Positions 6,001-9,000 of a DNA stretch of 64,000 bases are shown here, piece by piece. This DNA is from a virus (Duplodnaviria; Heunggongvirae; Uroviricota; Caudoviricetes): IMG/VR virus record IMGVR_UViG_2939521961_000004. The stretch is one strand, 5' to 3'. Each line of letters opens with the position of its first letter. The stretch's first letter is position 1. The position numbers are program-made.

Positions 6001-9000
6001 GCAAGCAGATGAGCTGATTTTTCCGTCCCTTCGCAGGGCAAACCTGGCGCTGCGCAGGGCGAAAAGTGATGTTCAGAAGTGGGAGCGAGTCTGCGCCGCG
6101 CTGCGGGAGCTGAACAAGCACCGGGATATTGTTCGACAGATTACTGATTCTTCCCGCCGTGTTGTATCGGAAAAGTGATTGCCGGAGGCGCTTATGGCAA
6201 AAGTATTTACACAGGAAGAGCGGGAAAAAATTAAAGGGCAGGTTGTTGAGCTAGTACGCCGGAGTGGGCGCGAGACGTTACGGCAACTGGAAGCCAAGAC
6301 AGGTGCGACAAGATATCTGATGAGCGTTCTTGCCAGAGAGCTGGTTGCCAGTGGCGATGTATACAACTCTGGTTACGGGTTATTCCCATCTGAACAGGCT
6401 CGTAAGGACTGGCAAAACGCCCGCAAAAAACTATCGAGGGCAAAACTGAAGAAACCGGTTGTGGTTGATCCTGACCTTATCTGGTCATTACCAGACGGAG
6501 AAATACGCCGCTATGACAGGCAATTGAACATAATTTGTAGTGAGTGCCGTAACAGTGAAGTGATGCAGCGAGTTTTGATATTTTACACAGGAGTAATGAT
6601 GGAATAGTGAAAATAACATGAAACCTTTGGATTCTGGTGTTTCAGTGGATGGGAAAAGAGCAGATACATAGAAAATGAATAGCAATAATTCACAGTCTGG
6701 ATGTTGTTTGTATGCTTATAAAATGATCCTAGTATGCATTGCCGGAGTTGAATCAGCTCCAATGAAGAAACTGAGAGGAGTATTTAGAAGATAGCTAAAT
6801 GGATGTAATTATTAGTATCTAAAAAATAGTATTTTTGAAATGGGTCTAAGAACACAACAATGTACAAATGAGAAGTTATCTTTTAATATGTTCAAAGACC
6901 CATTAGGATTGATATCAGTTATGTTAGCTAGATTGATAAAGTGATTACATATTTTCTGTTATATGCTGAAATGAATAATGCTATTCCAGAGTGCAGCAGA
7001 GAAAGTCTCCTGATGATTGAGCTCTGGAAATTGTACAATAGAAAAATTACTGTATTTTTCTGTCAAAATATTTCTCAAAACAGATTCCGCTTTGATGGCT
7101 TCAGGATATAAAGATGCGGAGTAATCAAGGCTAAGATTTCCGTTAAGCAAGCATATACTTTTAGTGTGCTTTGATTCTGATATATCATCTTTAATTATCT
7201 TGATGATTCTTTCATTCTGCCATAGAAGTGATGGTGCAGATATATAATAATAGTTAAAGCATGAATTATTTTTTAAGCAATCAAGCACAAAAATAGCACC
7301 TAGCGAGTGCCCCCATATACCGATTCTGGAACTGTTCGGAGCAATAGTACTAACCCATGGCATGATCTGAGTTAGTAATAATTCTCGGAAAGACTGGCTT
7401 CCTCCACCAGTAAAGTAGATCCATGCTGGTTTAGAGTTATCAACAATAGCATTTTCACCATCAGGAGTATAATCGTAAGCACGGCGATGAATGCTAAGGT
7501 TATTCCAAGATTCATAACCAAGTGTAACTAACACTGGTGGATTGGGTAGTGCATCAATAACAGGCAGAATATCAGAAATGTAATTGTTGGCACTATTCCC
7601 ATCAAGTATATAAAGAGTTGCATTATTTTTTTTAATGTTTTTTGGAGTAAAAATACATATTTTATATTTGGTGTCATGGTTAATTGAGTTAAATATGCGT
7701 GTTTGACAATGAATGTCCATATGTTTAGTCATGCGTTCTCCCCATGAGCATTAAAGGATGCTTAAGATATGCTATGTCACTGATAAAAAATTTGTTGTGT
7801 GTGTTTAGTTATTTTATCTACCTCCATTATGATTTAAGACTGATATATGTTATCAGCAAAGGTACATCGTTATTATTTTACCTGTCAATACATTTGATAT
7901 TGATTATCGTTTACATCGCTTGCTTAGGAAATTGAAGGCAGGTAACTATCATGTCAATGAACTAACCCACAGTCTAACGTACTTCTTTCCCCAATCACCA
8001 ACAACCAAATTCCTGTTATCACCACTGGGATTTTGGCGCAACTTCATGGTGCAGAGGTAAATAGCATCAAGCAAAATCTCTTTTTCCGTTGTTGTCCTTA
8101 TGGGACGTCTGTCTTTCTGACCGATTTCATATTGGCGAGGTAATGGGAAGTTAAGTAGAATAGCTGCGGGTGCTTGAGGCTATCTGCCTCGGGCATGAAC
8201 ACCAACGGCAGATAGAGAAAAGCCCCAGTTAACATTACGCGTCCTGCAAGACGCTTAACATTAATCTGAGGCTCAATCTATGAACGGCAAATCTAGGTTA
8301 GCCTCTTACGTGCCGAAAGGCAAGGAGAAGCAGGCTATGAAGCAGCAAAAGGCGATGTTAATCGCCCTGATCGTCATCTGTTTAACCGTCATAGTGACGG
8401 CACTGGTAACGAGGAAAGACCTCTGCGAGGTACGAATCCGAACCGGCCAGACGGAGGTCGCTGTCTTCACAGCTTACGAACCTGAGGAGTAAGAGACCAG
8501 GCGGGGGAGAAATCCCTCGCCACCTCTGATGAATCAGGCATCCTCAACGCACCCGCACTTAACCCGCTTCGGCGGGTTTTGTTTTTTCCTGGCATTCTGG
8601 TTTACAATTCGCACGCCAGCCTGAACAACTGGCACCTGCTGCGCCAGCAGAGACAACCGATGGCGCACGATACCAAATTATACAATTCTGATGATTCTGC
8701 CGTCTTTGCCAGCAGGCGCGGACGGTGTTTTCACGCATTCAAATCTGACTGGTACCAGCATCCCCCATGCACTGAAGAACAGGCCGAATGGCTCATTCAG
8801 TGTTACCGCAGGCGCGGATGCGAGGTTAAAAAAGCCCTTAGCCTCGACTACCGTCACTGGATAATCTCCGTCAGGCTCCCTTACTCCGAACGGCCACCGC
8901 GTCCGTCCCGCACATTCCAGCAACGGATCTGGAGGTAATGTGCGGGTATTACTTCGACCTGTTCTGGTACCGGAACTCGGTCTGGTTATCGTTAAGCCAG

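What the first reader, a model, noticed from the sequence alone, without database searches (positions are those of the whole stretch)
6610..8280. AT-rich reverse-strand insert encoding an esterase-type alpha/beta hydrolase in the nin region
A 257 aa GHSLG hydrolase lies on the opposite strand to all surrounding phage genes in a markedly AT-rich segment with long non-coding flanks, and is absent from the equivalent place in prophage B. It has the hallmarks of horizontally acquired cargo; its substrate is unknown.
Basis: partly seen in the sequence, partly recalled or inferred. Interest (0 to 1): 0.6.

Follow-up and report, generated by a model that had tools for sequence, protein, structure and literature searches.

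The report
Prophage-borne IroE-like siderophore esterase gene
An AT-rich, backwards-facing cargo gene in an E. coli O157-type lambdoid prophage encodes a relative of the enterobactin-cleaving enzyme IroE that lacks an export signal, so the phage probably gives its host an extra cytoplasmic iron-siderophore esterase; its activity has not been tested.

Summary
ORF 6959-7732 (-) encodes 257 aa with GHSLG. Its GC is 0.345 (GC3 0.283), against about 0.52 in the neighbouring genes, all of which are on the + strand. It is ECs1077 of Sakai prophage Sp4 (WP_000160654, annotated "alpha/beta hydrolase").

The substrate class can be narrowed. The best PDB sequence match is the enterobactin/salmochelin hydrolase IroE (E 5e-26). 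An AlphaFold model (pLDDT 91.6) has IroE-clade siderophore esterases as its 30 best structural matches. IroE's Ser189/His287 dyad, Asp90 and Arg130 are conserved as S143, H240, D44 and R84.

Unlike 70 of 85 distant relatives it has no N-terminal signal or anchor, so it is predicted to be cytoplasmic. The nearest relative outside E. coli prophages is 33% identical.

The 1.4-kb cassette fills a swap slot (6601-8087) between the DUF977 gene and hok/sok. A related phage carries the defence gene PD-T7-1 there, and prophage B carries other cargo. Two alleles give dN/dS 0.17 and share a conserved upstream block with a promoter-like site, a palindrome and a 15/19 Fur-box match.

It occurs in 471 of 5426 complete E. 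coli genomes, many of them EHEC. It is a new member of a known enzyme family in an unreported phage context. Activity and regulation are inferred.

The parts
6601..8087 (.). Variable cargo slot between the 3' end of the DUF977 (ren-position, LygF/YdaW-like) gene and the hok/sok locus
   Evidence: Homology to the cassette-less phages mEp460_ev081 and HannyBb ends at 6598-6600 and resumes at 8088-8092. Those phages carry PD-T7-1 or a QueH-like gene there.
6601..8002 (-). AT-rich hydrolase cassette (GC 0.338 over 6586-8002): terminator hairpin, CDS and conserved upstream control region
   Evidence: It aligns end to end with the divergent allele in strain PS2Canimalfeces12, and homology is lost after ~8002. 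No flanking direct or inverted repeats and no mobility gene were found.
6959..7732 (-). CDS of 257 aa for an IroE-family serine esterase without a signal peptide (ECs1077 / WP_000160654). Predicted key residues are D44, R84, S143 (GHSLG) and H240.
   Evidence: dN/dS is 0.17.
7738..7743 (-). Shine-Dalgarno sequence GGGGAG, 5 nt upstream of the ATG. An in-frame TAA at 7751-7753 excludes a longer N-terminus.
   Evidence: Read from the sequence. It is invariant in all upstream haplotypes.
7826..7853 (-). Candidate sigma-70 promoter: -35 ATAACA, 16 nt spacer, -10 CATAAT
   Evidence: Consensus scan. Both hexamers are invariant across 6 upstream haplotypes, and the spacer is 17 nt in the divergent allele. 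Function is inferred.
7840..7856 (.). Perfectly conserved palindrome CTGATA-N5-TATCAG overlapping the candidate -35; operator-like, binding factor unknown
   Evidence: It matches the Fur 7-1-7 core at 11/14.
7859..7888 (-). Alternative candidate promoter: perfect -35 TTGACA (7883-7888), 18 nt spacer, -10 TACCTT (7859-7864)
   Evidence: Read from the sequence. It is almost invariant across alleles; the divergent allele changes three spacer bases while both hexamers stay identical. It falls below the scan tool's threshold, so it is inference only.
7896..7914 (.). Fur-box-like site (15/19 to GATAATGATAATCATTATC)
   Evidence: Only 3 sites in the 64-kb window reach 15/19 or better. A score of 15 or more occurred in 3 of 1000 dinucleotide shuffles of the upstream region and in 1 of 500 mononucleotide shuffles. 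Other alleles score 14-15/19 by my count on the aligned sequences. Binding has not been tested.
6839..6904 (-). Stable hairpin followed by a U-rich tract on the - strand only; likely terminator of the hydrolase transcript
   Evidence: Inverted repeat I4. The fold has a z-score of -3.6 and 0 of 200 shuffles fold as well. The arms are conserved in the divergent allele although the loop has a 12-nt indel.
7991..8077 (+). Remnant of the N-terminus of an ORF6N (KilA-N-like) gene; not part of the cassette
   Evidence: Pfam ORF6N, E 0.002, profile positions 3-31. RefSeq annotates a partial pseudogene here. It is absent from the divergent allele's locus.
6179..6607 (+). DUF977 gene, the left anchor of the slot
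   Evidence: Pfam DUF977, E 4e-27. Annotated as LygF / Ren-like / phage exclusion protein in other records.
8092..8492 (+). hok/sok/mok type I toxin-antitoxin locus, the right anchor of the slot
   Evidence: Rfam sok, 107 bits, at 8168-8342. Pfam HOK_GEF. Homology with other phages starts at 8088-8092.

Best explanation
This is a self-contained lysogenic-conversion cassette (a moron). It sits in a recombination-swappable slot between the DUF977 gene and hok/sok in Sp4-type lambdoid prophages (ECs1077 in Sakai prophage Sp4). It is transcribed against the phage's early-right genes, from its own promoter to its own hairpin terminator. It encodes a 257-aa IroE-family alpha/beta-hydrolase. Like IroE, the enzyme most likely uses a Ser143-His240 dyad, helped by Asp44 and Arg84, to cleave the serine-ester backbone of catecholate siderophores such as enterobactin, its linear or glucosylated forms, or a related xenosiderophore. 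Because it has no signal peptide or membrane anchor, it should act in the cytoplasm of the lysogen, alongside the host enzyme Fes. There it would either release iron from imported ferric siderophore or linearise apo-enterobactin. A Fur-like box and a conserved palindrome at the promoter suggest iron-responsive control. SHOWN: the ORF, its composition, its family and fold, the conserved residues, the lack of a leader, purifying selection, the slot structure and the distribution. INFERRED: the substrate, the compartment, the promoter, Fur control and the benefit to the host. Rough confidences: IroE-clade member 0.9; substrate is a siderophore ester 0.55; Fur control 0.3.
For: Homology and fold:
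- phmmer against PDB gives IroE 2gzr at E 5e-26 over residues 8-253, then BesA (9e-13), PfeE (1.5e-11) and fungal siderophore esterases.
- The AlphaFold model built on an 88-sequence alignment has pLDDT 91.6 and pTM 0.91.
- In Foldseek against PDB, ranks 1-30 are all IroE-clade siderophore esterases (E 1e-18 to 3e-14; TM 0.79-0.83 to IroE). The next class scores about 1e-9.

Residues:
- The alignment maps S143 and H240 onto IroE Ser189 and His287, the documented catalytic dyad (PMC10515146). D44 and R84 map onto Asp90 and Arg130.
- D44 and R84 are invariant in the 88-sequence family alignment, S143 is present in 87 of 88 rows and H240 in 85 of 88.

Family context: relative P0020 (31-39% identical) lies beside entE/entB/entA-like genes, two TonB-dependent receptors and a FecCD-type ABC importer.

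No leader: only 9 residues precede the first strand. 70 of 85 distant relatives carry an extension of 30 residues or more with an uncharged 12-residue stretch. An in-frame stop upstream excludes a longer ORF.

The gene is functional: dN/dS is 0.17 with dS 0.31 between alleles. The SD and about 100 nt of upstream sequence are almost invariant across alleles.

Cassette features: promoter-like site, Fur-like box and terminator-like hairpin.
Against: - No biochemical or expression data exist for this gene, and no paper mentions ECs1077 or WP_000160654.
- Pfam PF00756 scores only 17 bits against a 22-bit cut-off, and NCBIfam gives nothing.
- Identity to any characterised esterase is at most about 31%, so specificity could have shifted.
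- E. coli already has cytoplasmic Fes, so the added value is unclear.
- The gene is not linked to any siderophore gene.
- In O26:H11 11368 it is split by IS1203, so it is dispensable in at least that lineage.
- The Fur-box match is 15/19 in AT-rich DNA and lies 43 nt upstream of the scan-predicted -35 rather than over it.
- The same slot carries an anti-phage gene in a related phage.
Confidence: 0.55

Rival explanations
1. The fold is the same but the job differs. The esterase would be a lysogen-protective function, such as anti-phage defence, exclusion or anti-bacteriocin activity, acting on a non-siderophore ester or acting indirectly through iron status.
For: The identical slot, with the same breakpoints, the same reverse orientation and similar low GC (0.36), holds the defence gene PD-T7-1 in phage mEp460_ev081. 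Prophage B holds a ParDE toxin-antitoxin pair and an HNH gene there. The protein is at most 33% identical to any other relative.
Against: There is no PADLOC match. All four IroE functional residues and the whole fold are retained. Every characterised member among the 30 top structural hits is a siderophore esterase.
Confidence: 0.2
2. It is a generic carboxylesterase or lipase with no siderophore connection, carried as neutral cargo.
For: The Pfam 'Esterase' match is below threshold, and PF00756 also covers esterase D and other enzymes. RefSeq names it only 'alpha/beta hydrolase'.
Against: Sequence and structure searches rank siderophore esterases ahead of all other hydrolases by 5 or more orders of magnitude in E-value. 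The family-specific invariant residues D44, R84 and D87 are present.
Confidence: 0.15
3. It is a decaying, N-terminally truncated remnant of a periplasmic IroE-like gene and has no function.
For: It lacks the signal/anchor and the PLGxNIADxGS segment of its closest relatives. It is interrupted by IS1203 in O26:H11 11368 and apparently in four other listed records. It is AT-rich and so possibly silenced.
Against: dN/dS is 0.17 over dS 0.31. The 257-codon frame is intact in alleles at 89-100% identity. The SD and upstream block are conserved. 458 genomes carry it at 99% identity or more.
Confidence: 0.05

Closest known systems
IroE (enterobactin/salmochelin trilactone hydrolase of the iroBCDEN cluster; PDB 2GZR/2GZS)
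   Same: It is the best sequence hit (E 5e-26) and the best structural hit (TM 0.79-0.83). It has a lid-less alpha/beta-hydrolase fold. The Ser189/His287 dyad, Asp90 and Arg130 are all conserved.
   Different: Identity is only 27-31%, and 29% to plasmid-borne E. coli iroE. There is no N-terminal anchor or signal, so the predicted location is the cytoplasm, whereas IroE is periplasmic (PMC7403778). The gene is not in an iro cluster but in a prophage slot, and it is AT-rich.
BesA / BES (Bacillus bacillibactin esterase; PDB 2QM0)
   Same: Same clade (E 9e-13; Foldseek 6e-18). It is a family member without an export signal, which I recall to be cytoplasmic, so a cytoplasmic location has a precedent.
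   Different: It is more distant than IroE. It is chromosomal and linked to siderophore uptake genes. Its substrate is a threonine trilactone.
PfeE (Pseudomonas aeruginosa periplasmic ferric-enterobactin esterase; PDB 6GI0)
   Same: Same clade and fold.
   Different: It is periplasmic and encoded next to the pfeA receptor gene. Identity is 20-23%.
Fes (E. coli cytoplasmic ferric-enterobactin esterase)
   Same: It has the compartment and general reaction proposed here.
   Different: [quoted passage not shown] The structural match is only about E 1e-9.
Reverse-strand AT-rich cargo genes at the ren/nin junction of lambdoid phages, e.g. PD-T7-1 in mEp460_ev081
   Same: Same slot and breakpoints, same orientation, low GC, a single gene with its own signals.
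   Different: The protein is unrelated, and the hydrolase has no PADLOC match.

Membership tests
IroE-clade siderophore esterases | Significant sequence homology to characterised members | tested here: met
   IroE E 5e-26, BesA 9e-13, PfeE 1.5e-11.
IroE-clade siderophore esterases | Lid-less alpha/beta-hydrolase fold superposable on IroE | tested here: met
   Model pLDDT is 91.6. The 30 top Foldseek PDB hits are all from this clade, with TM 0.79-0.83 to 2gzr.
IroE-clade siderophore esterases | Ser (GxSxG) - His catalytic dyad | tested here: met
   S143 and H240 align with Ser189 and His287. They are present in 87 and 85 of 88 family sequences. The geometry in the model could not be inspected.
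IroE-clade siderophore esterases | Asp90 and Arg130 equivalents (their importance in IroE is recalled from Larsen et al. 2006, which I could not read here) | tested here: met
   D44 and R84 are invariant in 88 of 88 sequences.
IroE-clade siderophore esterases | Hydrolysis of a siderophore ester backbone | not testable with these tools
   This needs an enzyme assay.
Pfam PF00756 (Putative esterase) | Score above the gathering threshold | tested here: not met
   17 bits against a 22-bit cut-off. Relatives P0020 and P0023 do carry PF00756.
IroE proper (iroA locus enzyme) | N-terminal signal or anchor giving a periplasmic location | tested here: not met
   No hydrophobic N-terminus is present and a stop lies 21 nt upstream.
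IroE proper (iroA locus enzyme) | Linkage to iroBCDN or other siderophore genes | tested here: not met
   The neighbours are phage genes: DUF977, hok, DUF968, rusA and Q.
Fur regulon | Fur box at the promoter | tested here: inconclusive
   A 15/19 match lies at 7896-7914, reached in 3 of 1000 shuffles. It lies upstream of the predicted -35, not over it. The palindrome over the -35 matches the 7-1-7 core at 11/14.
Phage moron (autonomous lysogenic-conversion cassette) | Foreign composition, own promoter and terminator, present or absent between otherwise homologous phages | tested here: met
   Composition, slot comparison, and promoter-like and terminator-like sites. Expression in lysogens was not tested.
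Known anti-phage defence systems (PADLOC) | Match to a defence-protein model | tested here: not met
   No match at E up to 0.1.

The most novel reading that the evidence does not exclude
Prophages of the Sp4 type carry a cytoplasmic, iron-regulated IroE paralogue that changes how EHEC processes enterobactin. One possibility is that it linearises apo-enterobactin inside the cell to (DHBS)3. In Salmonella this product, made by IroE or Fes and exported by MacAB, protects against peroxide (PMC7403778). The other possibility is that it unlocks a xenosiderophore. Either way it would be the first phage-encoded siderophore-processing enzyme and a fitness or virulence factor of EHEC in the inflamed or bovine gut.
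Probability: 0.12. Interest if true: 0.7.

Novelty: new member of a known kind. Interest (0 to 1): 0.42.

Why it matters
EHEC strains are usually described as having only Fes to process enterobactin. One paper states that E. coli encodes no IroE homologue (PMC7403778). Here an IroE-family gene under purifying selection sits in a prophage in 471 of 5426 complete E. coli genomes, many of them O157:H7, O26, O103, O121 or O145.

I found no phage-encoded siderophore esterase in 50,697 phage records or in the BFVD viral structure set. IMG/VR held only copies of this same gene. The searchable literature had nothing.

If the enzyme is active, it links lysogenic conversion to iron and siderophore metabolism. 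It also turns an anonymous "alpha/beta hydrolase" into a directly testable hypothesis with named catalytic residues. If it is not a siderophore esterase, its position in a slot that elsewhere holds a defence gene makes it a candidate for a different lysogen-protective role.

Tried and rejected
- Single-sequence AlphaFold gave pLDDT 47 and was unusable. I replaced it with a run on an 88-sequence alignment.
- NCBIfam and PADLOC gave no match. PHROGs gave only phrog_8493, of unknown function.
- The scan of GTDB representative genomes with the protein found nothing.
- The IMG/VR scan with the family alignment found nothing, because its GHS[YLF]GG pattern does not fit this protein's GHSLGA. The single-protein scan found only copies at 89-100% identity.
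- The tblastn 'phage' hits at about 29% identity are not complete phage genomes. Three lie on 230-690 kb records, one of them named Salmonella enterica; the fourth is an unannotated 2.5-kb fragment.
- No transposon-like terminal repeats flank the cassette, so I rejected a mobile-element origin.
- The + strand ORF 7744-7935 (63 aa) in the upstream region was rejected as a gene, because a 1-nt indel in the divergent allele breaks its frame. ORFs in the 3' flank were rejected because of 1-, 3- and 12-nt indels.
- The palindrome is not a LexA box: it reads CTG-N11-CAG, where a LexA box needs N10. It is probably not a CI operator either, because it is conserved in prophages with different immunity regions.
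- Literature searches for ECs1077, WP_000160654, phage-encoded enterobactin esterase, and Fur with Sp4 returned nothing relevant.
- Larsen 2006 and Lin 2005 could not be opened. The roles of Asp90 and Arg130 therefore rest on memory plus their invariance in the family alignment.
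Full report
1. THE OBSERVATION

The six-frame ORF list shows a 257-aa ORF at 6959..7732 on the - strand. GHSLG lies at residues 141-145. The flanking long ORFs are all on the + strand. On the left are replication-type genes, DUF1627 (5408-6178) and DUF977 (6179-6607). On the right are hok (8280-8492), DUF968 (8940-9989), rusA and Q.

The compositional contrast is strong. Gene GC is 0.345 and GC3 0.283, against 0.48-0.53 in the neighbours. The 3' flank (6608-6958) has GC 0.313 and the 5' flank (7733-8130) 0.369. The window mean is 0.507.

The start codon is well defined. GGGGAG lies 5 nt before the ATG, and an in-frame TAA lies 21 nt upstream.

2. IDENTITY AND DISTRIBUTION

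The DNA is 100% identical to a segment of many EHEC chromosomes, where RefSeq calls the gene "alpha/beta hydrolase", WP_000160654. In O157:H7 Sakai it is ECs1077 in prophage Sp4.

The AT-rich part (6608-8090) occurs in 471 of 5426 complete E. coli genomes. In 458 of them identity is 99% or more, and it is almost always single copy. The genomes listed are largely O157:H7, O26, O103, O121 and O145, from cattle and humans.

No deposited phage genome contains it. Only the hok/sok end of the interval matches phage records, and tblastn finds no true phage homologue. IMG/VR holds 19 prophage fragments, all 89-100% identical at the protein level. No paper in the searchable library mentions ECs1077 or WP_000160654.

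3. WHAT THE PROTEIN IS

Pfam gives only a sub-threshold match to PF00756 "Putative esterase" (17 bits against a 22-bit cut-off). NCBIfam and PADLOC give nothing, and PHROGs gives an unannotated family.

Against PDB sequences the picture is clear. IroE, the enterobactin/salmochelin trilactone hydrolase (2GZR), matches at E 5e-26 over residues 8-253. It is followed by Bacillus BES/BesA, Pseudomonas PfeE, a Shewanella "IroE-like serine hydrolase" and fungal siderophore esterases.

An exhaustive HMMER scan of 1.84 billion representative proteins found 998 relatives. Apart from fragments of the same E. coli protein, the best is only 33% identical (E about 1e-26). The closest named ones are exported Pantoea, Duffyella and Methylophaga hydrolases.

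With 87 of these sequences as the alignment, AlphaFold gives a confident model (pLDDT 91.6, pTM 0.91). In Foldseek against the PDB, ranks 1-30 are exclusively IroE-clade siderophore esterases. These are IroE (TM 0.79-0.83), PfeE, BesA, EstA/EstB and 3GFF, at E 1e-18 to 3e-14. The next hits, which include Fes and several non-siderophore hydrolases, score about 1e-9.

In the alignment, PDB chain index plus 40 reproduces the published dyad numbering (Ser189/His287; PMC10515146). This places S143 and H240 on the dyad, and D44 and R84 on Asp90 and Arg130. D44 and R84 are invariant in the 88-sequence alignment, S143 is present in 87 of 88 rows and H240 in 85 of 88.

The family is siderophore-linked in its native settings. 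Relative P0020 sits beside entE/entB/entA-like genes, two TonB-dependent receptors and a FecCD-type importer.

4. HOW IT DIFFERS FROM ITS RELATIVES

Seventy of 85 distant relatives carry an N-terminal extension of 30 residues or more that contains an uncharged hydrophobic stretch. The closest relatives follow it with a PLGxNIADxGS motif. The phage protein has 9 residues before the first strand and nothing hydrophobic.

It is closer to the periplasmic IroE type than to BesA, which I recall to be cytoplasmic. It therefore looks like a derivative of an exported esterase that has lost its signal, and it is predicted to work in the cytoplasm.

It is not a wreck. Against the allele WP_000160657 (90.6% nucleotide identity, 89.5% amino-acid identity) dN/dS is 0.17 at dS 0.31. 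In O26:H11 11368, however, IS1203 splits the gene, so it is dispensable there.

5. THE CASSETTE AND ITS SLOT

Homology to the cassette-less phages mEp460_ev081 and HannyBb stops at 6598-6600, a few codons before the DUF977 stop. It resumes at 8088-8092, where hok/sok begins (Rfam sok at 8168-8342).

In mEp460_ev081 that slot holds one reverse-strand gene with GC 0.36 that matches the defence protein PD-T7-1 at E 4e-157. HannyBb carries a QueH-like gene and small ORFs there. Prophage B of this window carries DUF4406, two Ead/Ea22 genes, an HNH gene and a reverse-strand ParDE pair, and no hok.

The divergent hydrolase allele occupies the same slot in a prophage with different repressor, replication and Q genes. 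The cassette therefore moves by recombination at the conserved anchors. No flanking repeats or mobility genes were found.

Between the two alleles, homology runs from the DUF977 end to about 8002. Positions 7991-8077 hold a remnant of an ORF6N gene.

6. SIGNALS WITHIN THE CASSETTE

Downstream of the stop codon lies a conserved hairpin (6839-6904) with a fold z-score of -3.6. It is followed by a U-rich tract on the - strand only.

Upstream, about 100 nt (roughly 7805-7910) are almost invariant across six haplotypes, although synonymous sites have diverged by 0.31. This block contains four candidate elements:
- a promoter-like site, ATAACA-16-CATAAT, at 7853..7826;
- a perfect TTGACA at 7883-7888;
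- a 17-bp palindrome at 7840-7856 overlapping the predicted -35;
- a 15/19 match to the Fur consensus at 7896-7914.

Only three sites in the 64-kb window reach 15/19. A score of 15 or more occurred in 3 of 1000 dinucleotide shuffles of the upstream region. This suggests iron control but does not prove it.

7. MECHANISM PROPOSED AND ITS RIVALS

The most economical reading is a lysogen-expressed, cytoplasmic IroE-family esterase acting on catecholate siderophore esters. IroE linearises iron-free enterobactin and salmochelin to the trimer. Fes degrades the ferric forms in the cytoplasm (PMC7403778).

A cytoplasmic IroE-type enzyme could do either of two things. It could add iron-release capacity, possibly for a siderophore that Fes handles poorly. 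Or it could make linear (DHBS)3 internally.

The main rival is that the fold has been re-used for a protective function, given what else lives in this slot. No defence model matches, however, and the siderophore-esterase residues are intact. A generic esterase and a dead remnant are both less likely.

8. NOVELTY AND SCORE

The gene is already in the databases under a generic name, and the enzyme family is well known. It is therefore a new member of a known kind.

The new elements are the assignment to the IroE clade, the loss of the export signal, the phage-borne context and the candidate iron-responsive control region. I found no precedent for the phage context. Interest is moderate, at 0.42. 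The hypothesis is concrete, cheap to test and relevant to EHEC iron biology, but nothing about it is mechanistically unprecedented.

Noticed in passing
window 19571-19595: This is the strongest Fur-consensus match in the window: 17/19 at 19577-19595, with an overlapping 15/19 at 19571-19589. It lies between the lysis genes and the small terminase gene, next to small - strand ORFs (19196-19420, 19436-19591).
   Followed up: no
window 10735-11800: A second AT-rich island (GC about 0.36-0.38) lies just after the Q antiterminator gene. It encodes a CPBP/Rce1-like intramembrane protease (10880-11704, Pfam E 1.4e-19) with no PADLOC match. It is probably another cargo gene.
   Followed up: partly
L004 (Escherichia phage mEp460_ev081, LR597641.1) 1523-2872, - strand: The gene annotated 'hypothetical protein' in the same DUF977/hok slot matches the defence protein PD-T7-1 at E 4e-157. 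It has GC 0.36, against 0.50 for the adjacent gene.
   Followed up: partly
window 7991-8077 (+): An N-terminal fragment of an ORF6N (KilA-N-like) gene (Pfam E 0.002) lies between the cassette and hok/sok. It is absent from the divergent allele's locus.
   Followed up: partly
window 8501-8582 (+): A sub-threshold Rfam match to the Salmonella prophage sRNA isrK (27 bits against a gathering score of 50; E 0.004) lies just downstream of hok.
   Followed up: no
L027 (E. coli O26:H11 11368, NC_013361.1) 1850-3935: The hydrolase gene is split into two pseudogene pieces by an IS1203 (IS3-family) insertion. Four other listed records show the same two-piece match with an IS3-family transposase; two of them are labelled O26 or closely match it, and two are pig and fish isolates.
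   Followed up: partly
window 13068-13317 and 62392-62643: Both prophages carry a tRNA trio: CAT anticodon (annotated Ile in RefSeq), Arg-UCG and Arg-UCU. The hydrolase gene is rich in the matching rare codons, with 9 ATA and 3 AGA (4.7 per 100 codons, against 1.1-2.4 in neighbours).
   Followed up: partly
window 58147-58772 (-): Prophage B has a reverse-strand ParE/ParD toxin-antitoxin pair at the right end of its equivalent slot, and it has no hok/sok locus.
   Followed up: partly
PLSDB record NZ_CP124741.1 (E. coli O157:H7 EDL933, 286,775 bp 'plasmid') 30059-30829: This record carries the hydrolase at 100% identity. At that size and content, it is probably a chromosomal or prophage fragment labelled as a plasmid.
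   Followed up: no
window 13807-15657 (+): A 616-aa ORF corresponds to the gene RefSeq annotates as a SASA-family carbohydrate esterase in the matching O103 prophage (NanS-p-type by my recollection). It is a second, unrelated esterase, placed in the late region on the phage's own strand.
   Followed up: no
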